A DNA stretch of 64,000 bases from an uncultured Methylococcaceae bacterium (lineage in GTDB: Bacteria > Pseudomonadota > Gammaproteobacteria > Methylococcales > Methylococcaceae), in NCBI GenBank assembly GCA_903930145.1, contig CAIYXP010000300.1:768-64767 (forward strand), written 5' to 3'. Below, piece after piece: positions 6,185 to 38,438 of this stretch (positions within the stretch are counted from its first letter, which is position 1; each line of letters opens with the position of its first letter). The notes under the pieces are model-generated. The model had not been told where the DNA came from, did no database searches, and saw only the letters and a program-made list of their open reading frames with translations. Made by a program: the position numbers and the translations under genes.

Positions 6185-6191
6185 GGCAGGT

Positions 6192-8755: not shown

Positions 8756-10006
8756 ATGTTTAATTTAGCATTTCGAAATGTCTTCCGTAACCGCTGGAGG
8801 TTCATACTCAGCGCCTTTGTAGTAGCGGTGACGAGTTTCCTCCTTGTGTATGCAACAGCACAAATAAGTGGAGTCAGTAATACTTTGGCTAAGGGAATGA
8901 GTGACACTTTGACTGGACATATTCAGATAAAGCCAAAATCTGCCCCGATAGATTTTTTTGAAAATCCCTCGTCTAGGCGCTTGGAACTCATTAGCGCTGA
9001 AGATTTGGATCGAATTATGAAAACCCTTCTAGTCGTAGAAGGCATCGAAGCAGTGACACCGCGCATACGTTTCGGATCGGATATTGGGGATGATGAACGC
9101 TCGGTGCCAGCGCTAGTCATGGCTGTCGATCCTGCGCATGAGGGTCTAGTCGTGCCAGACTTAGGGAAACTTCTAGGCCCCTTGTCAGATAGCGGTTCAG
9201 CACTGATTTCAAAGTATTTAGCTGACAAGCTTAAGAAAGGTAAAGGTGAGGAAGTTGTTGTTCTGACTCATACCTCAAAGGACACAGTCAATGCAGGATT
9301 GTATCGGATAGCTGGCTTTGCCGAAGCGCCAGTACTTATTGACGAATTTATGAATTCTTTATTCATTGTCGATATCAATAGTGCACGAAAAATTCTATAT
9401 ATGAGCGACGGGGCGACTGAGATGGCGATAAGGCTTAAGCCTGGCTACGAAACGCAGATTAAGCGCGTGATAGCCGATATTGAATCGCATCTAAGCCAGC
9501 CACAGCGAGACTATCTTGCAGTATATTCCTATACCGATGTGGCTAAATCTGTTGGTAACATTTCTGGGATTGCGACTGGCATTGGAATTATCCAAGTCGG
9601 TGTCATCATGCTGGTAATGCTGGTAATTATACTTATCGTCACAAAAATGGGTCTTTACGAACGCCGCGTAGAGATTGGGACTCTAATATCCATTGGAATG
9701 ACCCGGGGACGCTTGGTATCATTGTTTATGTCTGAGGTAACCATAAAAGTTTTGATCGGCTATGGAGTCGGCCTTATATTTGCCTTGCTTTTTTTGCAAG
9801 GCATTCGTGAGAATGGTGGGGTCAAGGCTCAAACTCAAGTTGAGCAATACCTTTACGGGGGTAAAATCATGTACCCCATTGTAGATTCAGAAAGAATTTT
9901 ATTTGGATTTCTTCTGGTAATGTTTGCCGCTGTTTTGACTACGGCTGCGACTTGTTGGAAAGCAAGTGGTGAGGAAGTCGTGCAACTATTGACAGGCAAG
10001 AAGTGA
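8756..10006 (+). CDS. FtsX-family ABC permease (LolC/E-like), subunit 1
   Basis: N-terminal FRNVFRNRWRF plus a TM, a large periplasmic domain, and a C-terminal 3-TM FtsX domain (ERRVEIGTLISIGMTRG). An AAGAGG SD lies upstream of the ATG. Confidence 0.88.
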   Translation: MFNLAFRNVFRNRWRFILSAFVVAVTSFLLVYATAQISGVSNTLAKGMSDTLTGHIQIKPKSAPIDFFENPSSRRLELISAEDLDRIMKTLLVVEGIEAVTPRIRFGSDIGDDERSVPALVMAVDPAHEGLVVPDLGKLLGPLSDSGSALISKYLADKLKKGKGEEVVVLTHTSKDTVNAGLYRIAGFAEAPVLIDEFMNSLFIVDINSARKILYMSDGATEMAIRLKPGYETQIKRVIADIESHLSQPQRDYLAVYSYTDVAKSVGNISGIATGIGIIQVGVIMLVMLVIILIVTKMGLYERRVEIGTLISIGMTRGRLVSLFMSEVTIKVLIGYGVGLIFALLFLQGIRENGGVKAQTQVEQYLYGGKIMYPIVDSERILFGFLLVMFAAVLTTAATCWKASGEEVVQLLTGKK

Positions 10007-10013
10007 TACCTCT

Positions 10014-11342
10014 ATGAAAACTAGTAAAGACAGTGCGATAAAGACATCAATTGATAATACAAGTCAGCGTATTGGAAGTTTTTTTATTTCTTTTGGTAAC
10101 ACTTGGAGCTTAGCCTCCAGAAATATTCTGCGGCAGCGTTCAAGAAGCTTTCTACTTGGTCTGTTAATCCTTTTTGCTAGCTTTGTCATAGTGTATTTTT
10201 CGCAGTTTTTGGAAGGGGTATCAAAAAACTTCACCAAAAACCTTATTAGCCTTGCCAGTGGTGATATTTATGTTTCGTCCAAAGTTGATCGTAAAGCGGA
10301 TGGCAACCTTTTTGACCGGGATTACGAATATTTCCACCTATCGCCTCAATTCTTTGACAATCTTGCCAAGCTAGAAGGTTTCTCTTCAGTGAGCCACCGG
10401 ATTGAATTCAATGCCCGCATAGTCACCGATTCGGACACCATTCCGCAAAGAATAATGAGCTTCGATCCGATGCAGGATTCGGCCTTGTTGAATAACTTCA
10501 CCTTCACGACGGGTCAAATGTTCAATCCTGGGGAATACGGCATAATCCTGCCGGAGGATGTGGCGCGCCGCTATGGCGTGACCGTAGGCAACCGGGTCAG
10601 GCTGCTTGCAAAATCCGTAAATAAGCAGATTAACTTGATAGATTTTATTGTGACCGGAATATTCCGCACGAACAATCTTTCCGCCTGGTTCGATACCTAC
10701 GCCTACATCGACCTTAAAGCCGCTCGTGCACTCCTTGACGACACAGGTACGCTGACGCGCCTGAATATCCATCTTGACAAGGGTGCACAACCCAAAGCAT
10801 TTGTCGCTGATCTCGACAAGTTATTGAAAGCCCAAGGTATGTCTAACAACCCTAATCTTGAAGCCACGTACTGGGCGGACGGTGCGGGGTTTTTCTCTGA
10901 ACTCACGATGGCCATGCAACTCGGCTACGTCATCGTCATCGTCATCATAATAACCATGATCGCCGCTAGCCTCGCCTTGGCTGCGGTGATGACTGTCATT
11001 GAGCGCACCAAAGAGATCGCGACGCTCGGTGCGATAGGCGCGACGCCACCGCAAATTCGCCGCATCCTAGTGGGGGAGCAAATCCTGTTGGCAGGTGCTG
11101 CGGCACTGTTGGGAACGACTCTCGCTGGGGTATTGTTCATCGTTACTTCGTATACTGGCATCCCTTTGAATACCCAGGAACTTAGAGGATTCCTAGGTTC
11201 TTCACATTTCTATCCGGCCTTCAACTTTGACGGATTCTTGGCAGGTATGTTGGTTCCCTTGCTTGTGGCCTTCTTGGCAACCTATATATTTGCCAGGCGA
11301 GCATCTAAACTCTCCATAGCTCAAGCTATGGCTGACCCGTAA
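10014..11342 (+). CDS. FtsX-family ABC permease (LolC/E-like), subunit 2
   Basis: Same architecture as subunit 1 (ASRNILRQRSRSF plus TM, periplasmic domain, ERTKEIATLGAIGATP FtsX region). It lies 7 nt after the previous stop. Confidence 0.88.
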   Translation: MKTSKDSAIKTSIDNTSQRIGSFFISFGNTWSLASRNILRQRSRSFLLGLLILFASFVIVYFSQFLEGVSKNFTKNLISLASGDIYVSSKVDRKADGNLFDRDYEYFHLSPQFFDNLAKLEGFSSVSHRIEFNARIVTDSDTIPQRIMSFDPMQDSALLNNFTFTTGQMFNPGEYGIILPEDVARRYGVTVGNRVRLLAKSVNKQINLIDFIVTGIFRTNNLSAWFDTYAYIDLKAARALLDDTGTLTRLNIHLDKGAQPKAFVADLDKLLKAQGMSNNPNLEATYWADGAGFFSELTMAMQLGYVIVIVIIITMIAASLALAAVMTVIERTKEIATLGAIGATPPQIRRILVGEQILLAGAAALLGTTLAGVLFIVTSYTGIPLNTQELRGFLGSSHFYPAFNFDGFLAGMLVPLLVAFLATYIFARRASKLSIAQAMADP

Positions 11343-11372
11343 ATTTATTATTGAATTGATAGGAACATTCGT

Positions 11373-12044
11373 ATGCTTGTCGAACTGAACAACGTCAAGA
11401 AAGAGTACTCTCTCGGGAAAGCCAAAGTACAGGCTTTAAGGGGTATTACCTTGAATATAAACCGTGGGGACTTCATTACCATTGCCGGCCCCTCGGGCAG
11501 TGGCAAAACTACCTTGCTCAATCTCGTAGGTTGTTTAGATACTCCGACCGAAGGGACGGTGTTTTTTGACGGGGTTGACATATCCACACTTGATTTGACG
11601 CAACGTGCGTATCTTCGTAATGAAAAGATTGGGTTCATTTTTCAATCGTTCAACCTGATACCGGTCTTGAACGTGTACGAAAACGTCGAACTCCCTGTGC
11701 GAGTAGGCCGGAGGAAAGCCAGCGGTCGAGAGTTGAAGGATTGGATTATGCATCTGATCGAGGCCGTTGGCCTGGCTGATCGGATCAAACACAAACCGGA
11801 GGAGCTATCCGGCGGGCAAAGGCAGAGGGTGGCTGTTGCTCGCGCCTTGGTCAATAAACCGCACCTTGTCCTAGCAGACGAGCCGACTGGCAATTTGGAT
11901 TCCGAGACGGCGGTGAAAATCCTAGATATTATGCGAAAACTAAACCAGGAGGCCAAGACCACCTTCCTGTTTTCAACCCATGACCAAGAAATCATACAAC
12001 GCTGCGACAGCGTCGTTAGGATCAAGGACGGACATCTGGTCTGA
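11373..12044 (+). CDS. ABC transporter ATP-binding protein (LolD-like)
   Basis: Walker A GPSGSGKTT, Q-loop, signature LSGGQRQRVAVARAL, Walker B LVLADEPTGNLD, H-loop STHD. Confidence 0.95.
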   Translation: MLVELNNVKKEYSLGKAKVQALRGITLNINRGDFITIAGPSGSGKTTLLNLVGCLDTPTEGTVFFDGVDISTLDLTQRAYLRNEKIGFIFQSFNLIPVLNVYENVELPVRVGRRKASGRELKDWIMHLIEAVGLADRIKHKPEELSGGQRQRVAVARALVNKPHLVLADEPTGNLDSETAVKILDIMRKLNQEAKTTFLFSTHDQEIIQRCDSVVRIKDGHLV

Positions 12045-12087
12045 GCGGCTTTAGCCTAGTTAATCAATCGACATCCCATAAACTGGA

Positions 12088-12846
12088 GTGAGTTTTGTGA
12101 AAATTGCCACCTTGATAAGCTTTTGCGTGATTCTTATGCTGTCCTCCTCACCCGCAATATGTGCAGTCGATGCCAAGGAGGTCGAAAGCCTCATGCATAT
12201 TATCGAACAAAGCATGTTTCCGCAGATAGCCGCTTCGTCCGTGAAGATAACCAGCTATAAGGACGCAGTGGAGCAGAAAGTCATCGCCTTTGAGTTGCTG
12301 TCTAGCGGGGATAAGGGGCTTATCGAATTCACGGCCCCCACGGTTGATAAAGGCAAATACATACTTAGTTCCGGCAAGAATCTTTGGATGTATTTCAGCG
12401 ATATTAAACGCTCTATTCGCCTCTCCTACCAAGATAGTTTCATGGGAACGGACGCGAACAATTACGACGTACTTCAACTTAACCTTATCCAAGATTACTC
12501 GGTCGTCGGCTTCGAGGAAACCACGCTTGAAGGCAAGCCCGCCATCAAGCTAGAACTGTCTGCACGTGAAGGGACTGAAGGCTATAAAAAGATCACTAGT
12601 TGGGTGGATCAAAAAGGCCGCCGCCTGCTGCAAAACGATTGTTTTTCCATTTCCGGGGAAAAGATCAAAACCATTAAATACCAAGAAACCAAACTGATTG
12701 ACCGCTACCAAGTGCCGGTGTCCGTTTTGATTGAAAATCACCTCGACAAGAGCCGGACGACGCGCATGGAGTTTGTCAATGTAGAGCCCCGCGATAAGTT
12801 CAATGAGGCGATTTTTACGCTGGGCTATCTAGAGTCGATGAATTGA
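12088..12846 (+). CDS. Secreted LolA-like protein (outer-membrane lipoprotein-sorting protein family)
   Basis: Signal peptide (KIATLISFCVILMLSSSPAICA), then the family-typical core NLWMYFSDIKRSIRLSYQDSFMGTDANNYDVL. The likelier start is the GTG at 12097, 8 nt after the GGAG at 12085-12088. Confidence 0.8.
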   Translation: MSFVKIATLISFCVILMLSSSPAICAVDAKEVESLMHIIEQSMFPQIAASSVKITSYKDAVEQKVIAFELLSSGDKGLIEFTAPTVDKGKYILSSGKNLWMYFSDIKRSIRLSYQDSFMGTDANNYDVLQLNLIQDYSVVGFEETTLEGKPAIKLELSAREGTEGYKKITSWVDQKGRRLLQNDCFSISGEKIKTIKYQETKLIDRYQVPVSVLIENHLDKSRTTRMEFVNVEPRDKFNEAIFTLGYLESMN

Positions 12847-12953: not shown

Positions 12954-13805
12954 ATGAGTACTATTGCAGTCATCGGGGCAGGTGTCATGGGGGCGGATGT
13001 CACCCTCAATTTAGCAGCATTCGGCCATTCGGTCATCCTTAAGGATATTGATAAGGGTGTTTTACAAGCATTCAAGGATTCGATTCCCCGGCAGCTTCGC
13101 GGTTACCGCATGTTGGGGTGGATACCGGAGCATGGTTCGGCGGCTGAAGTGGGAGCGCACATCCACCTCACGGATGGCTACGATGGAATCGCGGATGCCG
13201 ACTGGGTCGTTGAAAACGTTACGGAAGACTGGGATACGAAGAAAAGTGTGTATCAAGACTTAGGCAGAATTTGTAAGCCAGAGGTATATTTCGCCGTGAA
13301 CACAAGTTGCATACCAATTACTAAAATTGCTGCTCTGATGCCATGTCCTGACCACGTGGTTGGGGCGCACTTTATGAATCCTGTGCCTCTCATGAAAATT
13401 GTGGAGGTTGTGAGGGGGTATCACACGTCGGATGAAACCTTGGATCAAATGAAAAGGCTGTTGTCATCAATTGGCAAGACAGGGATTGTCGTCAAGGATT
13501 CTGCCGGATTTGTTTCCAACCGACTGTCGCATTTGTTTATGAACGAGGCCGCTTTTCTGGTGCAAGACGGTATCGCCAAGCCCGTCGAGATAGATGCCAT
13601 TTTCAAACAGGGTTATGGGCACAAGATGGGCCCGCTTGAGACCGCCGACCTGATCGGTTTGGATACCGTGGTGAAGTCTTTAGACGTTTTGTATCAATAC
13701 TACCAAGATACCAAGTTTCGTTGTTGCCCACTGTTACGCCAAATGGTTGACGCTGGAGACATAGGCAAAAAAAGTGGAAGGGGGTTTTATGAATACCGCG
13801 CTTAA
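12954..13805 (+). CDS. 3-hydroxyacyl-CoA dehydrogenase family protein (FkbK/ZmaG/Asm13-like)
   Basis: N-terminal Rossmann motif IAVIGAGVMGADV, 3HCDH N- and C-domain signatures (NTSCIPIT, GFVSNRL, GPLETADLIGLD), and its context next to FkbH, ACP and ACAD genes. Confidence 0.9.
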   Translation: MSTIAVIGAGVMGADVTLNLAAFGHSVILKDIDKGVLQAFKDSIPRQLRGYRMLGWIPEHGSAAEVGAHIHLTDGYDGIADADWVVENVTEDWDTKKSVYQDLGRICKPEVYFAVNTSCIPITKIAALMPCPDHVVGAHFMNPVPLMKIVEVVRGYHTSDETLDQMKRLLSSIGKTGIVVKDSAGFVSNRLSHLFMNEAAFLVQDGIAKPVEIDAIFKQGYGHKMGPLETADLIGLDTVVKSLDVLYQYYQDTKFRCCPLLRQMVDAGDIGKKSGRGFYEYRA

Positions 13806-14886
13806 CAATAATGCAAATTTTGATGAAGTAATCCATATTGAATCGGATGCCAAGCTTTTTACCAAAATCGTAAAATGTGTGATTTGGGATTTAGACAATA
13901 CGATTTGGGATGGAATCCTTGTGGAGGGGGACGATGTCCGCTTAAAGCCAGGAATACCGGAAATCCTATCGATTCTGGATTCGCGTGGCATCCTGCACTC
14001 GGTGGCAAGCAAGAACAACTACGACGATGCCATGTCAAAGTTGAAGACGTTCGGCATAGACCATTACTTCCTGTTTCCTCAAATCGGCTGGGATGCCAAA
14101 TCCTTTGGCATTGCGAAAATTCAGAAGGATCTGAATATCGGCATGGATAGCTTGCTGTTCATTGACGACCAGATGTTTGAAGTTGATGAGGTAGCGACAG
14201 CCCATCCTGCAATTAATTGGATAGTGGCTGAAAAATACCAAGGATTACCATCCGACCCAAGGCTTAACCCGAAAGTGGTGGCGGAGGATGCGCACCTACG
14301 ACGGCTTCGTTATCTCGAAGCCATGGTTCGGCAACGGGATGAGGAGGAATTTAACGGAACACCAGAAGAGTTCCTCGTTAGCTTGGACATGAAATTTAGA
14401 ATTGCCACAGCAACCCATGCCGACCTTTTACGCGCAGAGGAACTCACAGTGCGCACGAATCAGCTCAATTCCACCGGGATCACTTATAGTTTCTCGGAAT
14501 TGGCGGCTTACATCAGATCGGAAAGCCACCAGCTTTTGATATGCGAACTGACCGACAAATATGGTTCCTATGGAAAGATTGGGTTGGTTTTGGTGGAAAG
14601 GCAAGCGCGCTGTGACAGGATCAAGCTCCTGTTGATGTCGTGTCGCACGGTGTCCAGAGGGCTTGGGGGGGTGCTCCTCACCTACCTGATGCAGCAGGCG
14701 GCACGGGATGGCAAAGAACTCCTTGCGGATTTCCGGCGAACCGAGCGTAACCGCCAGATGCTCGTCACTTACCAGTTTGGTAATTTCCGGGAGGTTGAAA
14801 GGACTCCCGAAGGACTGATTGTCTTTGCGAACAACCTTGACATTATCCCGGACTACCCCCCCTATATTCAGGTTTTCCTGGACTGA
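13789..14886 (+). CDS. FkbH-like HAD-superfamily (IIIC) glyceryl-ACP-forming enzyme
   Basis: HAD motif I in the FkbH context: VKCVIWDLDNTIWDG. Downstream FIDD motif. The size of about 365 aa is typical. The ATG at 13789 overlaps the upstream gene by 17 nt. Confidence 0.85.
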   Translation: MNTALNNNANFDEVIHIESDAKLFTKIVKCVIWDLDNTIWDGILVEGDDVRLKPGIPEILSILDSRGILHSVASKNNYDDAMSKLKTFGIDHYFLFPQIGWDAKSFGIAKIQKDLNIGMDSLLFIDDQMFEVDEVATAHPAINWIVAEKYQGLPSDPRLNPKVVAEDAHLRRLRYLEAMVRQRDEEEFNGTPEEFLVSLDMKFRIATATHADLLRAEELTVRTNQLNSTGITYSFSELAAYIRSESHQLLICELTDKYGSYGKIGLVLVERQARCDRIKLLLMSCRTVSRGLGGVLLTYLMQQAARDGKELLADFRRTERNRQMLVTYQFGNFREVERTPEGLIVFANNLDIIPDYPPYIQVFLD

Positions 14887-14936
14887 CGGGCAAGGCGTTG
14901 AGGCGACCAGGCAATAATTTAGTGCAATCAAAATGA

Positions 14937-15218
14937 GTGATGACTATGCCGGAACAAGAAGAGCAGCTTTGGCGTACCCAGCTTCGCGAATTTATCGAAG
15001 CCAATATGAACACAGTCGATGACGATGTGGTGCTACGCGACGACGATAATATTTTCGCCAATCGCTATGTGGATTCGATTTTCTCCATGCGCTTGCTCAA
15101 CTTTGTTGAAGCTATAAGCGGCATCATCGTAGCTGATGAGGATATCGTGCTAGCGAATTTCAGCTCGATTGACGCGATGCTTGCATTGATCAGCAGGCAT
15201 CGCGGGGCAGGCCAGTGA
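14937..15218 (+). CDS. Discrete acyl carrier protein (FkbJ/ZmaD-like)
   Basis: A small acidic protein of about 90 aa with a carrier-protein Ser motif (YVDSIFSMRLL), placed between the FkbH-like and acyl-CoA-dehydrogenase-like genes. The start is uncertain (GTG 14937, ATG 14940 or ATG 14946). Confidence 0.75.
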   Translation: MMTMPEQEEQLWRTQLREFIEANMNTVDDDVVLRDDDNIFANRYVDSIFSMRLLNFVEAISGIIVADEDIVLANFSSIDAMLALISRHRGAGQ

Positions 15219-16381
15219 TGACGACTCAGACTATCCACCCTTTGGTTGCATCCGCCAGGGCATTTGCGGAAGAAACCTTGCGTCCACGTGCTGGCGAATT
15301 TGATCAGCAAGAATGCGTTCCTCGTGATGTTCTTCATGAACTGGCGGAGCGCGGCCTGCTCGGTGCAATATTGCCGCGGGAATTTGGTGGCGGCGGCTTG
15401 GATCCGCTTTCCTATGGCCTACTCACAGCCGAGATCGGCAAGGGGTGCAGTTCGACGAGAGCTCTTCTGACGGTGCATGCCAGCTTGGTGGGGGAAACCT
15501 TGGCGAGGATGGGATCGTCGGACCAAAAGCGGCGATGGCTTCCAGACATGGCTGCGGGGAGGAGGCTGGCTTGTTTTGCGCTTTCGGAGCCAGACATCGG
15601 TTCAGAGGCGACCGCAGTCAAGACTAGCTACCGGGCGCAGGGCGGCGAGTTCGTGATCAACGGACAGAAGAAATGGATCACCTACGGTGCGATTGCCGAT
15701 TTGTTTTTGGTGTTCGCTGCCAGCGAGGGCGAGATCAGCGCCTTCATTGTGGATCGCACGATGGAGGGATTGTCGACCAAGCCTATGTCCGGTTTGCTGG
15801 CTAGTCGTGGCGCCCACCTTGCCGAAGTGAAGTTCGATAATGTGGTGGTTCCGAAGGAGAACCTGATTGGTCGGCTAGGCACCGGCTTCACATTCGTTGG
15901 TAACACGGCTCTGTTCTATGGACGTTACAGTGTTGCTTGGGCAGGAGTTGCTATAGCCGAGGCGGCAGTCGAGGAGATGGTGGAATATGCGAGAAACCGG
16001 CAGCAGTTCGGCAAAAAACTGCGGCAGCACCAAATGGTGCAATCGCTCATCGCAGGGGCCGTGGCCAAGCTCCATGCAGGGCGAGCGTTATGCGAGAAGG
16101 TTGGGCAGTTACGTAACCAAGGGGACGACGCAGCCGTGATGGAGGCTAACATCGCTAAATATGTAACATCGAAACTGGCTATGGAGGTGACCTTGACTGC
16201 CGTCCAGGTCTTTGGCGGAAACGGCTGCTGGAATGCCTACCCAGTCGAGCGTCTTTTCAGGGAGGCAAAGATATTAGAGATCATTGAGGGTTCCTCGCAA
16301 ATCCAAGAAATGCTCATTTCCGAACATGCGATTCGCCATTACAGGCGGAGGCAGCATCGTCCGTCGTTCGCCAATGTTTAA
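15218..16381 (+). CDS. Acyl-CoA dehydrogenase family protein (FkbI/ZmaE/Asm15-like)
   Basis: Full-length ACAD fold motifs (CFALSEPDIGSEA, GQKKWITYG, QFGKKL..HQMVQ, QVFGGNG, EIIEGSSQIQ). TGATG stop/start overlap with the ACP gene at 15216-15220. Confidence 0.9.
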   Translation: MTTQTIHPLVASARAFAEETLRPRAGEFDQQECVPRDVLHELAERGLLGAILPREFGGGGLDPLSYGLLTAEIGKGCSSTRALLTVHASLVGETLARMGSSDQKRRWLPDMAAGRRLACFALSEPDIGSEATAVKTSYRAQGGEFVINGQKKWITYGAIADLFLVFAASEGEISAFIVDRTMEGLSTKPMSGLLASRGAHLAEVKFDNVVVPKENLIGRLGTGFTFVGNTALFYGRYSVAWAGVAIAEAAVEEMVEYARNRQQFGKKLRQHQMVQSLIAGAVAKLHAGRALCEKVGQLRNQGDDAAVMEANIAKYVTSKLAMEVTLTAVQVFGGNGCWNAYPVERLFREAKILEIIEGSSQIQEMLISEHAIRHYRRRQHRPSFANV

Positions 16382-16398: not shown

Positions 16399-19300
16399 AT
16401 GCTTATGAACATGTACCAGACTTTGCTTGAATGCTTGAATGCGAGTGCACAGGGCGGGAAGGGTATCCGCTTCATCACGGGTGTGGGGCAAGAAGAGTTC
16501 CTCGCCTACCGGCAGCTTAGAGACGACGCTTTAGGTCGGCTCGCGGGGTTGCGCAAACTCGGAATTCAAGTGGGTGACGAATTGGTTTTCCAATATGCCA
16601 GCCTGAGGGAGTTCATGATCACCTACTGGGCATGTATCGCGGGTGCAATCATACCGGTTCCCTTGGAATTCGCCAGCCAAGCCACCAATGCGGAAAAGGT
16701 TTTCACGGTATGGAAAACCCTCAACAACGCCTGGCTGGCTTCGGATTCCGCCAACCTTGCCGATAGGTTAGAAGCTTTTGCGGCGCAGACTGAGTGGGCG
16801 GAGCAATGGGCGCAGATGCGTGGTCGCCTTGTCTTTCCAACCGATGTGGCCGGTGCTTCGGGAGATTGCCGACCAGCCGATGCAACCCCTTCTGACATCG
16901 CTTTCATCCAGTTTTCGTCTGGTTCCACCAGCGCCCCCAAAGGTGTCGTACTCACCCATGCGAACTTACTGGCAAATATCGACGATATACTTGCCGCAGT
17001 GGACTATACCGAAGCTGACACCTTCCTAAGCTGGAAACCCATCACCCACGATTTTGGCATGATCGCGTTCCACTTGGCGCCCATCGTCGCCGGGAGTGAT
17101 CAAATTCGCATTGCCACCGAAGTGTTCATCTGGAACCCCTCCTTGTGGTTTGCGGCGGCAGACAAGTATCGTGCGTCAATTCTGGGATCGCCGAATTTTG
17201 GCTATCGCCACTTCCTGAAACTTTATCGGAAAGGCAAGAAGAAGCCCTCTTGGGATCTTTCCTGTATCAAAGTCATCCTAAACGGTGCCGAACCAATTTC
17301 CGCCGAACTTTGCGAAGAATTTAGGCGGGAATTGGCCTGTTTTGGGTTGCCACCGCATTGCATCACACCGGGCTACGGGTTGGCGGAAGGTTCGCTGATT
17401 GCCTCGTTATGCCCAATAGACGAGGGTATCCGCACCATGACCGTTGACCGGCATCACCTCCGTGTGGGTGATCGGCTACAGCCAGTGGAGCCGGGATCGC
17501 CTCAGTCCATCACTTTTGTAGACTGTGGCCTGCCCTTCCCGAAGACTGATATCCGTATCACCGGCAAAGGCCGCTTGCCTTTGCCGGAAGATCAAGTCGG
17601 ACACATCGAAATCCGCGGCGATGCGGTTACCTCGGGTTATTACCGCGATCCGCAATCGACGGCAGCCCTGATTGGACCGGGCGGGTGGTTGGATACCCAA
17701 GACCTCGGAGTGCTTAGAGAAGGGCGTTTGTTCGTAGTCGGACGGGTCAAAGAGATGCTCATCATCGGCGGCATCAATTATTTCCCCCATGATATAGAAC
17801 AAGCGATACTGCGGGCTAGGGGCGAGGATCATCTTAACAAATACATTGTTTGCGGTGTCTACAACTCTGAGCAGGGAAGGGAGGAGCCGGTGATCTTTGT
17901 ATACGCCAAGCACACCGGGGAGGGTTTTGCTGCCCTTGCCGCCGAACTGCGGCAGGTAGTCATGGCGACGTTTGCCCTGCCCGTGGTCAATGTCGTCCCG
18001 GTCAAGAAAATCCCCAAGACGACGAGCGGTAAAGTGCAACGGTTCAAGCTAGTCCAAGATTACTTGGACGGTAAGTTCGACGAGGCACTGAATGATGTCG
18101 GGGAAGTCCGCGCCATTCGCATGGCCATAGCCAATATAGAGCTACCTGTAAGCTACACAGATGCTCCGGCGCAAACTGAAGACGGTATCATAGTCCGCAC
18201 CCGTCGTATCGCCGCCCGGCTTTTAGGTCACCCCGACATTGATCAGGATAGCGGTTTTTTCGACCTTGGCTTCTCTTCGCTTTCGCTGATGGTTTTGCGG
18301 GAAAGGCTAGAGGAGGAATTCGGCGTTTCTTTAGAGAGCACCAGTCCGCTTGATTTTCCTAATGTTCGCAGCCTAGCGGCCCACATTGCCCTTCATTTGG
18401 CGGTCGGCGCGCACCCTGCTCCTGTGCGGACATCCTTGCAGGAATCTCTTTTGCCTGAGGCGACCCACCATGAGCCCGTCGCAATCATCGGCATGGGTTG
18501 CCGCTTTCCTGGCGGTGCCGATTCCCCTGAGTCTTTCTGGAATTTGCTCAATTCTGGGATTGATCCAATCGGCGAAATGCCGCCGGACCGCTGGCAATCC
18601 GATCCCCAGGCGCACGCGGATTTGACCACGCGGCAAGGCGGTTTTTTGGATGCCGTGGATCGCTTTGATCCGTTGTTCTTTGGTATTTCTCCGACCGAGG
18701 CCGAAGCGATGGATCCGCAGCAACGTTTGCTGCTGGAAGTCTGCCACGAAACCATTGAGAACGCTGGCCTTAATTCATCGGAACTGGCAGGTTCGAGAAC
18801 CGGCGTGTTCATCGGGATGTCTGGCAGCGAATATGCCGCTGTCGGCAAGGATATGGGGCATTTCACTGGCCCCTACAGCTTCACTGGCACTATGTTTAAC
18901 ACCGCCTGCGGCCGAATTTCCTACACCTTCGGTTTCCAAGGCCCTTGTGTCGCAATAGACACCGCCTGTTCCTCGTCCTTGGTGGCGGTAAATCAAGGGC
19001 TGCACGAATTGCGGTCGAATACGTGCGACCTTGTGGTGGCGGGTGGCGTCAACCTGATTTTAAGAGCGGATGGTCATGTGAGTTTTTCTCAACTAAATGC
19101 CTTATCTTCGACCGGTCGTTGCCGCAGTTTCGACGAGTCCGCCGATGGCTACATTCGCAGCGAGGGTTGTGGCCTTGTTCTGCTCAAACGCCTGAGTGAT
19201 GCGAAGAGGGACGAGGATACCATCCTTGCCGTCATCAGGGGCGGGGCGGTCAACCATAATGGAAAGTCGGGGGGGTTGACAGTCCCAAACGGCTCAGCAC

Positions 19301-22300
19301 AAGAAGCCTTGATTCTCCAAGCTTTGGCGGACGCCGATATTGGGCCTGCTGAGGTGGACTATGTGGAAGCGCATGGTTCTGGAACAAGGCTGGGCGATCC
19401 GCAGGAACTCAACGCGCTTGCGCGGGTTTTCTCAGCCCGCAATGCGCCTTTGCGCGTGGGCAGTGTAAAGTCCAACCTAGGCCATCTTGAAAGTGCTGCG
19501 GGTATCGCAGGCCTCATCAAGCTGGTGCTTTGCCTGCGCCACCAGGCGTTTGCGCCAAACCTACACTTCCGACACCCAAACAGTCTGATTGATTGGGAAA
19601 AAGCCCTTCTCCTCCCGGTTACCGCCCCGCTGGCTTGGGCTGCCGAAGGCAAAACGCGAACGGCAGGCATAAGCTCCTTCGGTATCAGCGGTACCAATGC
19701 GCATCTTCTGCTACAGGAATACCCATGCCCCGTCAAACAGGCAGAGGCAGGTCGAGCTCAGGGTTCTTTTGTTTTCACCCTAAGCGCCAAATCCCCAGAG
19801 GGTCTGCGACTCTCAGCCTTGAAGTTTGCCAATTATCCGAAGTTGGAGACATTGCGTTTTGCTGATTTGTGCCGGACAGTAAACCGTTTGCGTGTTTCGC
19901 ACTCAAACCGCTGGGCCTGTAGCGCAGCCAACGCGGAAGATCTGCGGCAAAAATTGCTCCGGTTTGCAAACCATGCCGATCGGGTTGAAACTGACGGCGA
20001 CATGTGCCCCAGTCGCAAAATTGTGTTTCTCTATACCGGGCAGGGTTCTTACTATCCAGGCATGGGCGAGGCGCTTTATCGGGACAGCCCTGTGTTCAAA
20101 GATGCCTTTGATCAGTGCGATGCTCTGTTCGCCCCCTTGATTGGCTGTTCGTTGCGAGATTATGTTTATGCGCAACTCCGTCGAAGCTCTGATTCTGCTC
20201 AGGCCACCCAGTCGGCCATTTTCGCTGTCGGTTACGCTTTGAGCAGATTTTGGGAAGCGCTCGGCATCCGCCCCAGCGCAGTCATCGGCCACAGCATCGG
20301 CGAATACGCCGCTGCCTGTGAGTCGGGCATAATGAGTCTTGAAAATGCCGTGCAGATGGTTGCCTTGCGCGGAGCGATCATGGAGCAAACCCCGGCTGAC
20401 GGCGCAATGACGGGAATCCTTTCTGACGAAGCCATCGTCCGCAAGCTGTGCGAGGATTGCGGTGGCGGTGTCTATCTCGCAGCCATCAATGGGGATGAAA
20501 ACATCACTGTGTCCGGGCAAAAAGAAAGCGTGGCACGGTTGGTCGCAAGTGCCAAGAAAGCGCGTATCTTCACGGAAGCCTTGCCCATGTCTCACGCCTT
20601 CCATTCGCCGCTGATGGGAGCGAGCGCGGGTAAATTGAAGGATGGCTTGGCGGGAATTCGGTTTAGCGACCCCAAAATTCCTTTGATTTCCACTCAGAGC
20701 GGGCGGGTCTTGTCCTCAGCGGATGAGGCTGGGGCCGACTATTGGAGCGCCCACCTGTGCAACACAGTCCGCTTCAAGGACGCGATGCTGCTCGCATTGG
20801 GCACGGATGCAGCGACCTTTTTGGAAATTGGTGGCACGGCTACACTCAGTGGGTTGGGTGCCCAGATCGGGCGAGGGGATCAGCTTGCGTTTTTGCCTTC
20901 ACTCCGTGAGGGTAGGGATGCTTGGGAGCAGGTGAGCCAGAGCCTTGCCGTGCTATTCCGGCGTGGCTATTCGATCAACTGGGATGCCTACCACAATGGA
21001 GTGTCCTCGTTTATCACAGACTTGCCGAACACTGCCTATCAACGCAACCGCTTCTGGTTCTCGGACAATAGCCCTGCTAGACGGTCTCCCGCACCCGTAC
21101 CTCTAACCTTGGCCTACTCCACAGCATCAGAGGCGGCGGTGTTGTCCGGCGAAGCCACGGCGGCTTCGCCGATGACCTCGGAATCATCGGACTTGCAAGC
21201 CGTCCAACGTGACATCAAAGATATAGTAAGCCGCGTGACGGGCGTCCCGCCGTCGGAGATCGCCGACCAAGCCCATCTTTTCTCCCTCGGCATCGATTCT
21301 CTCATGCTCATGCAGATGGACAAGCAGGTGGTTGCCAAGTATGGCGTCGACATCCCACTCAAGCGATTTTTCACCGATTTGCATACACCTGAGAAGATCG
21401 CCTTGTTCGTCGCAGCGGAAATGCCGGCGGGATTGCGCGCCACCCCATCCACCCCAGCCTTGCTGTCTGCGCCATCGCCCCAGCCTCAGTTGGCTGTGCC
21501 GGGGCAAGCCATAAGCCAACTTGAACATATCGTCCAGACCCAGCTTGAGCTGATGCGGGAACAGATCGCGCTGCTAAACGGTCAGACGACTGCTCACACG
21601 GCCAGCTTGGAGACGAGTAAGGTGGCGGCAAAGCCTGCCGAGGTGGCGCGCCCAAAGACCAACCTTCGCGACATCACGCTGCACGAGGAGGATGTCACTC
21701 CCAGGCAGAGGGTGTTCATAAACCGTCTCATCCAGCGCGTCAACCAATCAACACCTAAATCGAAAAACTACGCCCAGACCTATCGTCGAGGCTTCGCCGA
21801 CTGGATTGCCAGTTTGAATTTCAGTTTGACCACGAAGGAACTGGTCTATCCCGTCGTCTCTGCCCGTTCCAAAGGCTCCCGCTTCTGGGATATTGACGGT
21901 AACGAATACATTGATACCGCCATCGGTTACGGGGTTTCTTTTTTTGGTAACAACCCAGACTTCATCGCCGAAGCGATCCAGGCTCAGCTTGGCCAAGGCA
22001 TCGAACTCGGCCCACAATCAGATTTGGTTGGCGAAGTCGCAGAGCGTATCCGCCGCCTGACTGGGGTGGAGCGGGTGGCCTTTTGCAACACAGGAACCGA
22101 GGCGGTCATGGTAGCCATCCGGCTGGCCCGTGCTGTCACCCGTCGCCTTAAGATCGTGCGTTTCATTACGTCTTTCCACGGTAGTTTCGATGGGGTGCTG
22201 GCGGAAGCAGGCGATGGCGGAACCGTACCAATGGCTCCCGGCATTCCACAGTCTATGGTCGAGGACACCGTCGTCCTGCATTACGGCAGTCCAGAATCCT

Positions 22301-25300
22301 TGGCGACCATCCGTGAGATGGGGGCGGAATTGGCCGCGGTATTGGTGGAGCCGGTACAAAGTCGCAATCCTGGACTGCAACCGCGCGAGTACTTGCAAGA
22401 ATTGCGCAAGATCACAGCGGATGCCGGCATCGCCCTGATTTTCGACGAGATGATCACAGGGTTTAGAATCCATACGGGGGGTGCGCAGGCATATTTCGAT
22501 GTGCGCGCCGACCTTGTGACCTACGGCAAAATCGTTGGGGGCGGCATGCCTGTCGGGGTTGTCGGCGGGAGTGCCCGCTACATGGATGCCATCGACGGGG
22601 GGGTGTGGAATTTCGGCGACACGTCAGGACCTTCGGCGGAAACCACTTTCTTTGCCGGCACGTTCTGCAAACATCCTCTGACCATGGCGGCTTCGCGGGC
22701 CGTGCTGGAAAAACTGGAGACGGAGGGGGCGTTGCTAATTGAGCGGACGAACGATCTGACCCGCCGCTTTACCGAGCGGGCCAATGTTTTTTTCGAGGAA
22801 TCACAGGCGCCTGTCCAAGTAAAGCGTTTTGGTTCGATGTATCGCTTCGAAGCACGTGTTTCACAAGATATCCCTCGTCTATCTCTTGAAATGAACCTGT
22901 TCTTCCGCCTGATGATGCTTGAAGGAGTCTATGTGTGGGAACGACGCACCTGCTTTTTCTCGACGGCCCACACGGAGGCGGACGCTGGTCGCATCCTCGG
23001 TGCGGTCAAAGCTGCCACTGATGAATTGCGCCGGGGCGGTTTCAGTTTCCGTGCTGTCAGTGAGCCGGACGGTGGCGGTTCAAAGATCCGGGGGGGCGAA
23101 TCAGGTTTGACAAGCTCCGGCCCGCGTTTCCTACAGCTTTCCTCCGAGGAACGGCGGATTTACATCTTGAGCCTGATGAAGGGAGGGGAGGCCGCCTACC
23201 ACGTGACGGGTGCTCTCCTGATTAAAGGCCTGTTGGAGCCAGATCGAGTAAGGGATGTCTTCCGCGTACTGACTCGACGCCATGAAGCCATGCGCACACT
23301 CTATAGGGTACAAGATGGTGAGATTCGCCGCCAAGTCGAAAGTGAGGTCGATATCGTCATGGAATGCAGGGATTCGACGGATGGAATAGAGTCCTCGCTG
23401 ATGGGTCAAATGGTACGGCCGTTCGATCCGTCCAAGGCACCCCTGTGGCGGATTGGGCTGATTAGGCGCGGCCTGAACGAAAACGTGTTGGTGCTTGATT
23501 TCCATCACCTGATTGCCGACGGGCGATCCATGTCCATTTTGATTCAAGACTTCATCGCCTTGTGGCAAGGCGAGACTGGCTTACGCGGGATGGAACCCCG
23601 GCCTTATGCAGATTTTGCCGAATGGGAATGTGGATTCGTCGGTAGTGGCGATTACTTGCGCCAGAAAGCCTATTGGCTCAAGGCTTTTGAAGTGCTCCCA
23701 CCGCCTTTGGGCCTTCCGACTGACTCCCCCCGCCCGCCGCAGAACGATTTTGCTGGCGCTTCCCTGAATGCCCCCTTTAAGCAGTCTGTCTTCCCGAAGG
23801 TTCGTGAAATCGCCCGGCAGTTGCAAGTCACCCCGTTCATGGTCTTGCTATCGGCCTATTTCGCCTTACTCCACAAGCTGACCGGTCAAGATGACCTGTG
23901 CGTGGGCATCCCATTCGACCGCCGGGTCAACCGGGATTTCGACCAGACCGTGGGCATGTTCTCGCAAACCCTGATGATCCGTGTTTTGGCAGGCGGCGAC
24001 CTGTCGTTCGGTCATCTTCTTGCGCAGGTGAGGGAGGCGTGCGCCTTAGCCTTTGCCCACCCCGATGTGCCTTTGGATGAATTACTGGAAGAATTGTCCG
24101 TACCCCGGGATTTCAGCCGGAACCCATTGTTCGATACCTTGTTCATTTTCGAAAATGGCAATGACCGGGTGACCAGCACCTCGGATTTGAGCGTCGAGAC
24201 ACTCCCTGTGCCAATTCGAGGCGCGGCCTTTGATTTGACCATCGAAATCACTGAGGAACGGGGTTTGCTGTCTGGTGTTTTGATTTATGCCACCCGCTTG
24301 TTTAGCGAAACCACCATCAAGCGCTGGGCCGGCTATTACGAAGCGCTGTTGGAGCGCGCCATGGACAATCCAGAAATTCGGATCAAGGATTTGGACATGT
24401 TAGTCCAAGGCGAGCGCAACCTGCTATTGTCGGGCTTCAATGATACTGCCAGAGCTTACCCGCCTCAGGAGACCGTTGTAACCCTGTTCAGACGGGCGGC
24501 AGCGTGCCATGCCGACAGGCTTGCAGTTCGGTGCGGGACGAAAAATTGTCTGACATATGCCGAGCTAGACGCAGCTTCCGACGATTTGGCAAAGCGGCTT
24601 GTCAGCCTTGGCATCGGAGCGGGTTCCTTGGTGGGCATCTTATTGCGGCGTGGGCCGGCGATGCCGGTGGCCATGCTCGGAGTGCTCAAAGCTGGAGCGG
24701 CGTATGTGCCCCTAGACCCCGATTACCCTCCGGCCCGCCTACGCTACATGCTGGAGCGTTGTGAAGCCAAGGTAGTGTTGAGCAAGGCAGGGTTCGCCGA
24801 GGAGTTGGGCTTTACAGGCATCGTGCTTGACCCTGACGGAGATACTCCCTCGCCACCAGCGGCTTTGCCCAAGGTTATATCGTCCGACGGATTGGCTTAT
24901 GTGATCTTTACCTCCGGGTCCACGGGCAAACCCAAGGGGGTCATGATTGAGCACCAGGCCGTCGTGAATTTTCTGCACGGCATGAAAGAGGCACTTGATG
25001 TGCCTGATAACATCAGCACACTGGGGCTTACCACCATTTCCTTTGACATCTTTGTTCTTGAAGTTTTCTTGACCTTCGTTCAAGGTGGTACCCTAGTGTT
25101 GGCGACGGAGGCAGAGCAAAACGATCCCAAGGAATTGGTACGGTTGATTAAATCGATGCAAGGCGGGTTAGTGCAGATAACTCCCAGTCGTTTACAAATG
25201 CTACTGTCGGCCTATTCGGCTCAAGAGGCTCTGGCGGGGTTGGGCCTGCTCTTGGTTGGCGGCGAAGCGTTTCCGTCGCACCATCTGGCTGACCTCAAGG

Positions 25301-27474: not shown

Positions 27475-27547
27475 TGAGTAGGCCGATTTGCGATGATTGC
27501 AGCAGACGGTCATTTTGTTCAACTTGATACAAGGGGTAAATGATCTG

Positions 27548-28816: not shown

Positions 28817-28831
28817 TAGAGGAGTTTGGGC

Positions 28832-33631: not shown

Positions 33632-33658
33632 GTCGGTACGAACAATAGCGAGACGAGC

Positions 33659-38422: not shown

Positions 38423-38438
38423 AGGCCAAGCAAAGCAT

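What the first reader, a model, noticed from the sequence alone, without database searches (positions are those of the whole stretch)
12954..16381. FkbH-type glycolate (hydroxymalonyl/methoxymalonyl-ACP) cassette with no dedicated O-methyltransferase and no obviously matching AT
The four genes are a 3-hydroxyacyl-CoA-DH-like gene, an FkbH-like gene (DLDNTIWDG), a discrete ACP and an acyl-CoA-DH-like gene. Together they reproduce the FkbK/H/J/I (FK520), Asm13-16 (ansamitocin) and ZmaG/N/D/E (zwittermicin) set that builds hydroxymalonyl-ACP from a glycolytic intermediate. No FkbG/Asm17-type O-MT gene is present. Both cis-ATs carry the malonyl-type HAFH motif (20593-20604, 50746-50757). The unit is therefore probably delivered to one of the three AT-less modules by the discrete AT, as with ZmaF. 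Any methylation would have to come from the MT domain embedded in the last PKS (52717-52740). Which module takes the glycolate unit is not predictable from the sequence.
Basis: partly seen in the sequence, partly recalled or inferred. Interest (0 to 1): 0.65.

Follow-up and report, generated by a model that had tools for sequence, protein, structure and literature searches.

The report
Hydroxymalonyl-ACP cassette feeding a lipid-starter module

Summary
Window 12954-16381 encodes a 3-hydroxyacyl-CoA-dehydrogenase-like gene, an FkbH gene, an ACP and an acyl-CoA-dehydrogenase-like gene. They are 48%, 56%, 33% and 55% identical to ZmaG, ZmaN, ZmaD and ZmaE, the zwittermicin hydroxymalonyl-ACP set. 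No small-molecule O-methyltransferase gene is in the window. Both cis-ATs read HAFH at the stated coordinates.

- ZmaF is aminomalonyl-ACP-specific. Zwittermicin takes hydroxymalonyl-ACP through a cis-AT (ZmaA-AT).
- The embedded MT is a C-methyltransferase type, so the unit most likely stays a free hydroxyl.
- The discrete AT belongs to a conserved block (AT plus two KS-DH-KR-ACP genes). That block also occurs in clusters with no cassette within 10 kb.
- The cassette is directly upstream of a FAAL-ACP-KS-AT-ACP-aminotransferase gene in 13 of 31 genome loci and one metagenome contig.
- The AT of that module forms its own clade. It has F-x-E where CoA-using ATs carry basic residues. Five non-clade controls lack the cassette.
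- A Chania relative with no cassette detected carries a dead AT at this position.

Most likely the cassette feeds the first module and yields a 3-amino-2-hydroxy fatty acyl starter. This is inferred, not shown.

The parts
12954..13805 (+). 3-hydroxyacyl-CoA-dehydrogenase-like gene (ZmaG/FkbK type). By homology it oxidises glyceryl-ACP to 2-hydroxy-3-oxopropionyl-ACP.
   Evidence: Pfam 3HCDH_N and 3HCDH. 48% identical to ZmaG. 45-67% identical orthologs lie in the same position in most of the 31 genome loci.
13774..14886 (+). FkbH-like HAD-IIIC phosphatase/glyceryl transferase (ZmaN type). Alternative start at ATG 13789.
   Evidence: TIGR01686 233.3 bits against a cutoff of 146.65. 56% identical to ZmaN. 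D39-x-D41-x-T43 (nt 13888-13914) and S289-C290-R291 (nt 14638-14646) are invariant in 34 homologs.
14937..15218 (+). Dedicated carrier protein for the extender unit (ZmaD/FkbJ type), with phosphopantetheine Ser47 at nt 15075-15077.
   Evidence: Aligns with the cassette ACPs of 33 loci, including ZmaD (33% identity; weaker match to ZmaH). The motif G-[YF]-V-x-S-[IL]-F-[AS]-M is conserved. There are no significant Pfam hits.
15215..16381 (+). Acyl-CoA-dehydrogenase-like gene (ZmaE/FkbI type). By homology it performs the final oxidation to hydroxymalonyl-ACP.
   Evidence: Pfam Acyl-CoA_dh_N, _M and _1. 55% identical to ZmaE (hydroxymalonyl branch) against 35% to ZmaI (aminomalonyl branch).
16399..26814 (+). 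First synthetase: FAAL-ACP-KS-AT-ACP-aminotransferase-C-A-PCP. Proposed user of the cassette product.
   Evidence: Pfam domain order. Orthologs follow the cassette directly in L001-4, L006-10, L013-15, L021 and L037.
19999..20958 (+). cis-AT of the first synthetase (AT1). Motifs GHSIG and R-I-F-T-E-ALPMS-HAFH. Proposed hydroxymalonyl-ACP-specific AT.
   Evidence: Motif alignment. It belongs to a separate F-x-E/N clade. Clade members with readable context carry the cassette; five non-clade controls do not.
27497..28816 (+). Discrete FabD-like AT (about 420-aa family with a C-terminal extension). Proposed malonyl donor for the three AT-less modules.
   Evidence: TIGR00128 303.5 bits. Best solved-structure hits are FabD, DisD and PksC. 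It lies directly before two KS-DH-KR-ACP genes in L040, L041, L042 and L047.
28826..38422 (+). Two AT-less modules, each KS-DH-KR-ACP (28826-33631 and 33659-38422).
   Evidence: Pfam. They are collinear with the genes after the discrete AT in four other clusters.
38397..48574 (+). A third AT-less KS-ACP fused to C-A-PCP-C (38397-45287), followed by a C-A-PCP gene (45308-48574).
   Evidence: Pfam; carrier-protein serine motifs.
48574..55740 (+). Last synthetase: KS-AT-C-methyltransferase-ACP-C. AT6 has ordinary malonyl-type motifs (GHSLG, G-T-R-R, HAFH).
   Evidence: Pfam. AT motifs. The MT region matches the C-MT domains of CurJ, DisA, citrinin PKS and LovB.
8756..12846 (+). Lol-like exporter set: two FtsX-type permeases, an ABC ATPase and a LolA-like protein. 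Probably part of the same cluster.
   Evidence: Pfam. The same four genes lie directly upstream of the cassette in L001, L002, L003 and L010; L004 is truncated and shows only the ABC and LolA genes.
55772..57928 (+). A 442-aa protein of unknown family, then a type II thioesterase. This is the likely downstream end of the cluster.
   Evidence: No family hit for the 442-aa protein; Thioesterase Pfam hit for the second gene. Both have homologs in L001 (46% and 57%), placed upstream of the exporter genes there.

Best explanation
The four genes make hydroxymalonyl-ACP from a glycolytic intermediate.
- FkbH dephosphorylates 1,3-bisphosphoglycerate and loads glycerate onto the dedicated ACP.
- The two dehydrogenases oxidise C3 to a carboxylate.
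- The unit is not O-methylated.

The unit is then taken by the cis-AT of the first synthetase (AT1), not by the discrete AT.
- The FAAL-loaded fatty acyl chain is condensed with hydroxymalonyl.
- The in-line aminotransferase converts the resulting 2-hydroxy-3-oxoacyl thioester into a 3-amino-2-hydroxy fatty acyl starter.
- This starter enters the peptide-polyketide line.

The discrete AT supplies malonyl to the three AT-less modules, and AT6 takes malonyl-CoA for a C-methylated last unit.

What is shown: gene content, homology, motifs and comparative context. What is inferred: every chemical step, and the assignment of the unit to AT1.
For: 1. Cassette identity. FkbH scores above the curated cutoff. 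The four proteins are 48, 56, 33 and 55% identical to ZmaG, ZmaN, ZmaD and ZmaE. The ACAD is much closer to ZmaE than to ZmaI, 55% against 35%. The HAD motif and Cys290 are invariant.

2. Linkage. In 13 of 31 genome loci with an FkbH relative, and in metagenome contig L037, the cassette lies directly upstream of a FAAL-ACP-KS-AT-ACP-AMT gene. These loci come from beta- and gammaproteobacteria and from Bacillota.

3. AT1 signature. AT1 and all 11 genome orthologs that reach the AT carry R-[IVA]-F-[TPVI]-E before H-[AP]-F-H, with no basic residue at the 'RXR' positions. Park et al. propose that hydrophobic residues there mark ATs that use ACP-linked extenders (PMC4207774). These ATs form one clade in a neighbour-joining tree.

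4. Prediction test.
- P0044 (F-T-E) has the full cassette upstream.
- The S. degradans AT1 is F-T-E, and a cassette ACAD cluster lists a longest contig of the same length (710,543 bp) as the contig carrying this locus.
- P0012 (F-V-N) has the dehydrogenase and the ACP upstream.
- Five KS-AT-ACP-AMT modules outside the clade, including ralsolamycin RmyA, have basic residues and no cassette within 10 kb.

5. Apparent co-loss. The Chania multitudinisentens cluster keeps the aminotransferase, the discrete AT and the same downstream modules, but shows no cassette. A thiolase lies upstream, and no ortholog is among the 120 best ACAD hits. Its AT1 is decayed: GQGS is lost, GHSIG has become GCGMG, and about 95 residues including HAFH are deleted.

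6. The discrete AT is independent of the cassette. The block AT + KS-DH-KR-ACP + KS-DH-KR-ACP is collinear in L042 and L047, which show no cassette gene within 10 kb.

7. The embedded MT is a C-MT type.
Against: - AT1 reads GHSIG and HAFH, the classic malonyl-CoA signature. The validated hydroxymalonyl AT (ZmaA-AT) reads GYSFG and GAAH, and the other cassette-adjacent cis-ATs (L017-19) have a small residue in place of Phe. The objection is partly offset because aminomalonyl-specific ZmaF keeps Phe (GPFH).
- AT1 has Glu at position -6, not a hydrophobic residue, so it fits Park's rule only in part.
- The F-x-E ATs are one clade. Their association with the cassette could therefore reflect shared ancestry of whole clusters rather than function.
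- The discrete AT is also conserved in at least 17 cassette-bearing contigs. It also lacks the conserved Arg, and it is a distant full-length relative of ZmaF at 33% identity.
- Absence of the cassette in Chania, L042 and L047 rests on 10-kb flanks and on a top-120 hit list.
- No chemistry was tested.
Confidence: 0.58

Rival explanations
1. The discrete AT takes hydroxymalonyl from the cassette ACP and loads it onto one of the three AT-less modules, most plausibly the non-reducing KS-ACP at 38397. Both cis-ATs take malonyl-CoA.
For: - Both cis-ATs read HAFH.
- The discrete AT has N-I-I and a one-residue deletion where FabD has K-R.
- It aligns over its full length, including the C-terminal extension, with the ACP-dependent ZmaF at 33% identity, and it falls in the same tree clade.
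- It co-occurs with the cassette ACAD on at least 17 contigs.
Against: - It reads GHSLG, not the GYS of ZmaF and ZmaA-AT.
- Orthologs with the same lid (N-I-I in L042), or with a basic residue (K-L-I in L047), sit in clusters with no cassette gene within 10 kb, always directly before two KS-DH-KR-ACP genes.
- Chania keeps the discrete AT although no cassette was detected there.
- A single discrete AT would have to serve three modules, and two of them dehydrate, which is awkward for an alpha-hydroxy unit.
- The model does not explain the dead AT1 in Chania or the F-x-E signature.
Confidence: 0.2
2. The cassette product is not a chain extender here. Glyceryl- or hydroxymalonyl-ACP would serve as a nucleophile or capping unit, for example in chain release by the C-terminal condensation-like domain of the last synthetase.
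For: - The last synthetase ends in a divergent C domain. Its best solved-structure matches are weak (E about 1e-9). There is no in-line TE.
- FkbH-loaded glycerate is used for tetronate and ester formation in other pathways (own knowledge).
Against: - Pathways that use glyceryl-ACP directly lack the two dehydrogenases (own knowledge). Here both are present, conserved and of the ZmaG/ZmaE type.
- The tightest conserved neighbour of the cassette is the first synthetase, not the last.
Confidence: 0.1
3. AT6, in the last module KS-AT-MT-ACP-C, takes hydroxymalonyl-ACP.
For: In the neighbour-joining tree, AT6 lies next to the clade holding ZmaA-AT and the L017-19 cassette-adjacent ATs.
Against: - AT6 has GHSLG, basic residues (G-T-R-R) and HAFH, like malonyl-CoA-specific ZmaK-AT, which is equally close in the tree.
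- The adjacent MT is a C-MT type that needs an enolisable alpha-CH2 or CH.
- AT6 is 34 kb from the cassette.
Confidence: 0.05

Closest known systems
Zwittermicin A hydroxymalonyl-ACP pathway (ZmaN, ZmaD, ZmaG, ZmaE, with the ZmaA cis-AT), Bacillus cereus/thuringiensis
   Same: - The same four protein types, with no O-methyltransferase.
- 56, 33, 48 and 55% identity.
- The unit is taken by a cis-AT, not by the discrete AT (PMC4207774). This is also my reading here.
   Different: - Gene order differs. Here the set is a compact four-gene operon; in zma the genes are scattered.
- ZmaA-AT reads GYSFG / M-C-M / GAAH. AT1 here reads GHSIG / F-T-E / HAFH and belongs to a different clade.
- The acceptor module here is a FAAL-primed KS-AT-ACP-aminotransferase module rather than an NRPS-fed reducing module.
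- There is no aminomalonyl branch here.
Methoxymalonyl-ACP pathways (FkbG-K of FK520, Asm13-17 of ansamitocin, OzmB-G with the trans-AT OzmC of oxazolomycin)
   Same: An FkbH, ACP, 3-hydroxyacyl-CoA-DH-like and ACAD-like core. In oxazolomycin the context is a trans-AT PKS with a dedicated discrete AT (PMC6164871).
   Different: - There is no FkbG/Asm17/OzmF-type O-MT gene in the window.
- The only embedded MT is a C-MT type.
- The single discrete AT behaves as the partner of the AT-less modules even in clusters without a cassette.
Lipo-initiation modules FAAL-ACP-KS-AT-ACP-aminotransferase (mycosubtilin MycA, puwainaphycin, ralsolamycin RmyA)
   Same: - The same domain order in the first synthetase.
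- RmyA is 36% identical over 2,200 residues.
- These modules make a beta-amino fatty acyl starter (PMC4989320; PMC4219810).
   Different: - RmyA is described as carrying monooxygenase domains next to its aminotransferase domains (PMC4989320). That the 2-hydroxyl of such starters comes from these domains is my own reading.
- The window's first synthetase has no monooxygenase domain and instead has the hydroxymalonyl cassette upstream.
- RmyA's AT is ordinary (S-H-R / HAFH) and has no cassette nearby.
Xenocoumacin/amicoumacin-type hydroxymalonyl cassettes (Xenorhabdus, Photorhabdus)
   Same: Xenorhabdus and Photorhabdus proteins are among the best ACAD hits at 61-63% identity. That these pathways use unmethylated hydroxymalonyl-ACP is own knowledge; it was not checked here.
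   Different: Their clusters were not inspected here. By own knowledge they lack the FAAL-aminotransferase starter module.

Membership tests
FkbH/ZmaN-type hydroxymalonyl-ACP extender pathway | FkbH-like HAD-IIIC phosphatase/glyceryl transferase with a DxDxT motif and a conserved cysteine | tested here: met
   TIGR01686 233.3 bits against a cutoff of 146.65. D39, D41, T43 and S289-C290-R291 are invariant in 34 homologs. 56% identical to ZmaN. That Cys290 is the catalytic cysteine is inferred from its invariance only.
FkbH/ZmaN-type hydroxymalonyl-ACP extender pathway | Dedicated stand-alone ACP with a phosphopantetheine serine | tested here: met
   33% identical to ZmaD. The conserved G-[YF]-V-x-S motif includes Ser47. 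No Pfam PP-binding hit at E<=0.001, as is common for this divergent ACP group. NCBIfam gives only weak ACP hits.
FkbH/ZmaN-type hydroxymalonyl-ACP extender pathway | A 3-hydroxyacyl-CoA-dehydrogenase-like and an acyl-CoA-dehydrogenase-like oxidoreductase of the ZmaG/ZmaE (FkbK/FkbI) type | tested here: met
   Pfam hits. 48% to ZmaG. 55% to ZmaE against 35% to the aminomalonyl-branch ZmaI.
FkbH/ZmaN-type hydroxymalonyl-ACP extender pathway | Formation of hydroxymalonyl-ACP from 1,3-bisphosphoglycerate | not testable with these tools
   This needs in vitro reconstitution with mass spectrometry of the ACP.
Methoxymalonyl-ACP pathway (FkbG/Asm17/OzmF) | Dedicated SAM-dependent O-methyltransferase acting on hydroxymalonyl-ACP | tested here: not met
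   No such gene is among the assigned ORFs of the window. The embedded MT matches C-MT domains only. The other MT is a DNA methylase of the HmaB type.
ACP-dependent cis-AT (ZmaA-AT / methoxymalonyl-AT type), tested on AT1 | Non-basic, hydrophobic residues at the RXR positions (-8 to -6 before the YASH motif) | tested here: inconclusive
   AT1 and its orthologs read F-[TPVI]-E. Position -8 is hydrophobic, no basic residue is present, but position -6 is acidic.
ACP-dependent cis-AT (ZmaA-AT / methoxymalonyl-AT type), tested on AT1 | Altered GHSxG (GYS in the Zma ATs) and a small third residue in the YASH motif (GAAH, xAGH) | tested here: not met
   AT1 reads GHSIG and HAFH; its orthologs read H-[AP]-F-H. 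AT1 is therefore not a member of the ZmaA-AT clade. It may still work like one.
ACP-dependent cis-AT (ZmaA-AT / methoxymalonyl-AT type), tested on AT1 | Transfer of hydroxymalonyl from the donor ACP to the module ACP | not testable with these tools
   This needs AT loading assays.
ACP-dependent discrete AT (ZmaF / OzmC type), tested on the discrete AT at 27497 | Consistent genomic association with an ACP-linked extender pathway | tested here: not met
   Orthologs at 43-51% identity lie in clusters with no cassette gene within 10 kb (L040, L042, L047), always directly before two KS-DH-KR-ACP genes.
ACP-dependent discrete AT (ZmaF / OzmC type), tested on the discrete AT at 27497 | ZmaF-like active-site motifs (GYSLG; hydrophobic RXR) | tested here: inconclusive
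   It reads GHSLG, not GYS. N-I-I is hydrophobic, but this trait varies within the family: K-L-I in L047, A-V-F in L041, F-F-I in L040.
PKS C-methyltransferase domain (embedded MT of the last synthetase) | Sequence similarity to characterised C-MT domains rather than O-MT domains | tested here: met
   All seven solved-structure hits are C-methylating enzymes or domains. The best are CurJ 5THY (E 3.5e-48), DisA, citrinin PKS and LovB. The catalytic residues were not inspected.

The most novel reading that the evidence does not exclude
A previously unrecognised clade of cis-AT domains carries the textbook malonyl signature (GHSIG, H-[AP]-F-H) but selects hydroxymalonyl-ACP. Paired with a FAAL-KS-ACP-aminotransferase module, it would give an oxygenase-independent route to 3-amino-2-hydroxy fatty acyl starters. 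The pairing occurs in an orphan, widely distributed family of lipopeptide-polyketide clusters found in beta- and gammaproteobacteria and in Paenibacillus. Motif-based specificity predictors would call this AT malonyl and so mis-predict the product.
Probability: 0.5. Interest if true: 0.6.

Novelty: new variant of a known kind. Interest (0 to 1): 0.45.

Why it matters
- Hydroxymalonyl-ACP is a rare extender unit. It places a free hydroxyl on a polyketide backbone and is sought after for pathway engineering.
- If AT1 is its acceptor, the HAFH motif is not a reliable marker of malonyl specificity, and a new AT clade for ACP-linked units becomes available.
- It would also be a second, oxygenase-free way to build the alpha-hydroxy-beta-amino fatty acid head group. 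My own reading is that lipopeptides such as ralsolamycin and puwainaphycin make this group with a monooxygenase domain.
- The cluster family has cultivable members (Saccharophagus degradans, Alteromonas sp. a30, Paenibacillus tyrfis, Massilia sp. W12). No product for it turned up in the literature searched, so the prediction can be tested directly.

Tried and rejected
- Protein search with the AT-ACP-aminotransferase region. It returned only proteins up to about 1,750 aa and none of the 3,400-aa orthologs. Full clusters of the closest relatives could therefore not be retrieved. The hits still served as motif controls.
- Downstream ends of the cassette-bearing clusters (for example Paenibacillus tyrfis L006). 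Whether any cluster has the cassette and an F-x-E AT1 but no discrete AT stays open.
- The FabD model score of the discrete AT as evidence for malonyl specificity. Rejected as a discriminator, because the record also annotates ZmaF as an ACP S-malonyltransferase.
- Park's RXR rule applied to the discrete AT. Rejected as decisive, because the trait varies among orthologs irrespective of the cassette.
- Solved structures for FkbH. Only the HAD half matches (3SLR and MDP-1). No FkbH structure is available to place the cysteine.
- Literature searches for a product of this cluster family, or for hydroxymalonyl combined with a FAAL-aminotransferase module. Nothing was found in the open-access library.
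- The 200-aa and 442-aa proteins as possible hidden methyltransferases. They have no significant Pfam or NCBIfam hits.
- P0049/L038. The contig ends 254 bp upstream of the gene, so it is uninformative.
- Adenylation-domain specificities and the full product structure were not attempted.

Full report
**1. What is in the window**

The window is a metagenome scaffold; identical proteins occur on ENA ERZ18659389 scaffolds and on a 67,897-bp contig. From 8756 to 57928, all on the + strand, it carries one hybrid gene cluster.

| Coordinates | Content |
|---|---|
| 8756-12846 | Two FtsX-type permeases, an ABC ATPase and a LolA-like protein |
| 12954-16381 | The four-gene cassette of the finding |
| 16399-26814 | First synthetase: FAAL-ACP-KS-AT-ACP-aminotransferase-C-A-PCP |
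| 26872-27474 | 200-aa protein of unknown family |
| 27497-28816 | Discrete FabD-like AT |
| 28826-38422 | Two KS-DH-KR-ACP genes |
| 38397-45287 | KS-ACP-C-A-PCP-C |
| 45308-48574 | C-A-PCP |
| 48574-55740 | KS-AT-MT-ACP-C |
| 55772-57100 | 442-aa protein of unknown family |
| 57146-57928 | Type II thioesterase |

Upstream lie the thioesterase end of another synthetase and efflux genes (3-7589). Downstream, on the opposite strand, lies an Hma-type defence locus.

**2.

- The cassette genes match 3-hydroxyacyl-CoA dehydrogenase, the FkbH domain (233 bits against a cutoff of 147) and acyl-CoA dehydrogenase.
- The small ORF between them is a divergent carrier protein. It aligns with the cassette ACPs of 33 other loci and keeps the serine.
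- FkbH keeps the HAD motif D39-x-D41-x-T43 and an invariant S-C-R at residues 289-291.
- I fetched the zwittermicin cluster from a Bacillus thuringiensis plasmid. Against it the four proteins are 48% (ZmaG), 56% (ZmaN), 33% (ZmaD) and 55% (ZmaE) identical.
- The dehydrogenase of the aminomalonyl branch, ZmaI, is only 35% identical. The cassette is therefore of the hydroxymalonyl type.
- HAFH is encoded at both stated coordinates, and 52717-52740 is the SAM-binding motif of the embedded MT.
- No stand-alone small-molecule methyltransferase and no further AT is present.

**3.

- ZmaF is not a precedent for hydroxymalonyl delivery. It is aminomalonyl-ACP-specific, and hydroxymalonyl-ACP is recognised by the cis-AT of ZmaA (PMC4207774; PMC6164871).
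- The embedded MT of the last synthetase finds only C-methylating enzymes among solved structures, led by CurJ at E 3.5e-48. O-methylation by that domain is unlikely, and the unit most probably stays a free hydroxyl, as in zwittermicin.

**4. Which AT takes the unit**

I compared 31 genome loci that encode an FkbH relative and 14 further loci.

*Linkage to the first synthetase.* The gene order dehydrogenase-FkbH-ACP-dehydrogenase is conserved across phyla. In 13 genome loci and one metagenome contig, the next gene is an ortholog of the first synthetase. These loci come from beta- and gammaproteobacteria, Paenibacillus tyrfis and a Bacillota MAG.

*The AT1 signature.* The AT of that synthetase (AT1) reads R-[IVA]-F-[TPVI]-E-x5-H-[AP]-F-H in every ortholog that reaches the AT. 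CoA-using ATs carry basic residues at these positions. Examples are K-T-T in malonyl-specific ZmaK-AT, R-V-R in DEBS, and G-T-R-R in the window's AT6. Park et al. proposed that non-basic, hydrophobic residues at this site mark ATs that take ACP-linked extenders: M-C-M in ZmaA-AT and I-A-I in ZmaF. The other cis-ATs next to a full cassette in my set fit the same rule (I-S-M, I-C-Q, Y-C-Q).

*Phylogeny.* In a neighbour-joining tree the F-x-E/N ATs form one clade. It is separate from the ZmaA-AT clade, from AT6 and from the discrete ATs.

*A prediction test among KS-AT-ACP-aminotransferase proteins from a database search:*
- The F-T-E protein P0044 has the full cassette upstream.
- The F-V-N protein P0012 has the dehydrogenase and the ACP upstream.
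- The S. degradans AT1 is F-T-E. A cassette ACAD cluster lists a longest contig of the same length (710,543 bp) as the contig that carries this locus.
- Five modules outside the clade have basic residues and no cassette within 10 kb. One is ralsolamycin RmyA, which is reported to carry monooxygenase domains.

**5. The discrete AT behaves differently**

- It belongs to a family of about 420-aa ATs.
- In Chania multitudinisentens, S. degradans, Ruminiclostridium cellobioparum and a Bacillus species, it lies directly before two KS-DH-KR-ACP genes that are collinear with the window's.
- The Ruminiclostridium, Bacillus and Chania loci show no cassette gene within 10 kb. None of them appears among the 120 best ACAD hits either.
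- Its lid residues are hydrophobic here (N-I-I) but vary within the family, including K-L-I. The motif therefore says little for this protein.
- The simplest reading is that the discrete AT is the malonyl donor of the AT-less modules.

**6. A natural experiment in Chania**

The Chania cluster keeps the KS, two ACPs, the aminotransferase, C-A-PCP, the discrete AT and the downstream modules. It has a thiolase where the cassette should be. Its AT1 is a remnant: the GQGS motif is gone, the catalytic serine is replaced (GHSIG to GCGMG), and about 95 residues are deleted, including the carboxylate-binding arginine and HAFH. The apparent loss of the cassette together with decay of AT1, while the discrete AT survives, is what the AT1 model predicts.

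**7. Proposed mechanism and its limits**

The proposed steps are:
- FkbH loads glycerate from 1,3-bisphosphoglycerate onto the ACP.
- The two dehydrogenases make hydroxymalonyl-ACP.
- AT1 moves it to the second ACP of the first synthetase.
- The KS condenses it with the FAAL-loaded fatty acyl chain.
- The aminotransferase turns the 3-keto group into an amine.
- The 3-amino-2-hydroxy acyl chain passes to the first C domain.

All chemical steps are inferred from homology.

The main objections are:
- AT1 carries the malonyl signature HAFH with its phenylalanine, although aminomalonyl-specific ZmaF also keeps it (GPFH).
- Position -6 is acidic, not hydrophobic.
- The F-x-E ATs are a single clade, so the association may reflect ancestry.
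- The discrete AT is also conserved in many cassette-bearing clusters, and it is a distant full-length relative of ZmaF.
- The absences rest on 10-kb flanks.

**8. Comparison with known systems and novelty**

The cassette is a member of the known hydroxymalonyl-ACP pathway family; all sequence-level features were tested and met. It is not a methoxymalonyl system, because no O-MT is present. AT1 is not a member of the ZmaA-AT clade, although it may work like one.

The new element is the pairing of the cassette with a FAAL-KS-AT-ACP-aminotransferase starter module, together with an AT clade that standard motif rules would call malonyl. I found no description of this pairing, or of a product for this cluster family, in the searchable literature. 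That library is incomplete.

I rate this a new variant of a known kind, of moderate interest, and directly testable in cultivable relatives.

Noticed in passing
window 27497-38422; L040, L041, L042, L047: The discrete AT and the two following KS-DH-KR-ACP genes form a three-gene block. It is collinear in otherwise different hybrid clusters from Chania, Saccharophagus, Ruminiclostridium and Bacillus, as if it were a transferable diene-forming unit.
   Followed up: partly
L040 (Chania multitudinisentens RB-25, CP007044.2) 3240-4000: The ortholog of the first synthetase lacks the FAAL domain and carries a decayed AT: no GQGS, GCGMG instead of GHSIG, and about 95 residues deleted. A thiolase gene lies upstream where the cassette lies in the window.
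   Followed up: partly
window 8756-12846: A Lol-like set (two FtsX permeases, an ABC ATPase and a LolA-like protein) lies directly upstream of the cassette. The same arrangement is seen in L001-L003 and L010, and in part in L004. This suggests export or outer-membrane delivery of a lipidated product.
   Followed up: partly
window 58308-63983 (minus strand): An HmaC-like AAA+ ATPase (DUF499) and an HmaB-like DNA adenine methylase, parts of an Hma-type defence system, flank the cluster. The methylase ORF reaches almost to the window end (63983).
   Followed up: partly
window 3-7589: The thioesterase-containing C-terminus of another synthetase runs in from the left edge of the window. It is followed by an MFS transporter and a MacAB/HlyD/TolC-type efflux set. 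A second biosynthetic cluster probably lies just upstream.
   Followed up: no
window 26872-27474 and 55772-57100: Two conserved-looking genes (200 aa and 442 aa) inside the cluster have no significant Pfam or NCBIfam hits. The 442-aa protein has a 46% identical homolog next to the type II thioesterase in L001.
   Followed up: partly
L034/L035 (metagenome contigs carrying P0012): A variant cluster has only the dehydrogenase and the ACP of the cassette upstream of a FAAL-PKS gene and a separate KS-AT(F-V-N, YPFHT)-ACP-aminotransferase gene. FkbH and the ACAD are not within the 25 kb seen.
   Followed up: no
window 38397-48574: The fourth synthetase ends in a C domain and the next gene begins with another C domain, so two condensation-type domains follow one PCP. 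The last synthetase also ends in a divergent C domain instead of a thioesterase.
   Followed up: no
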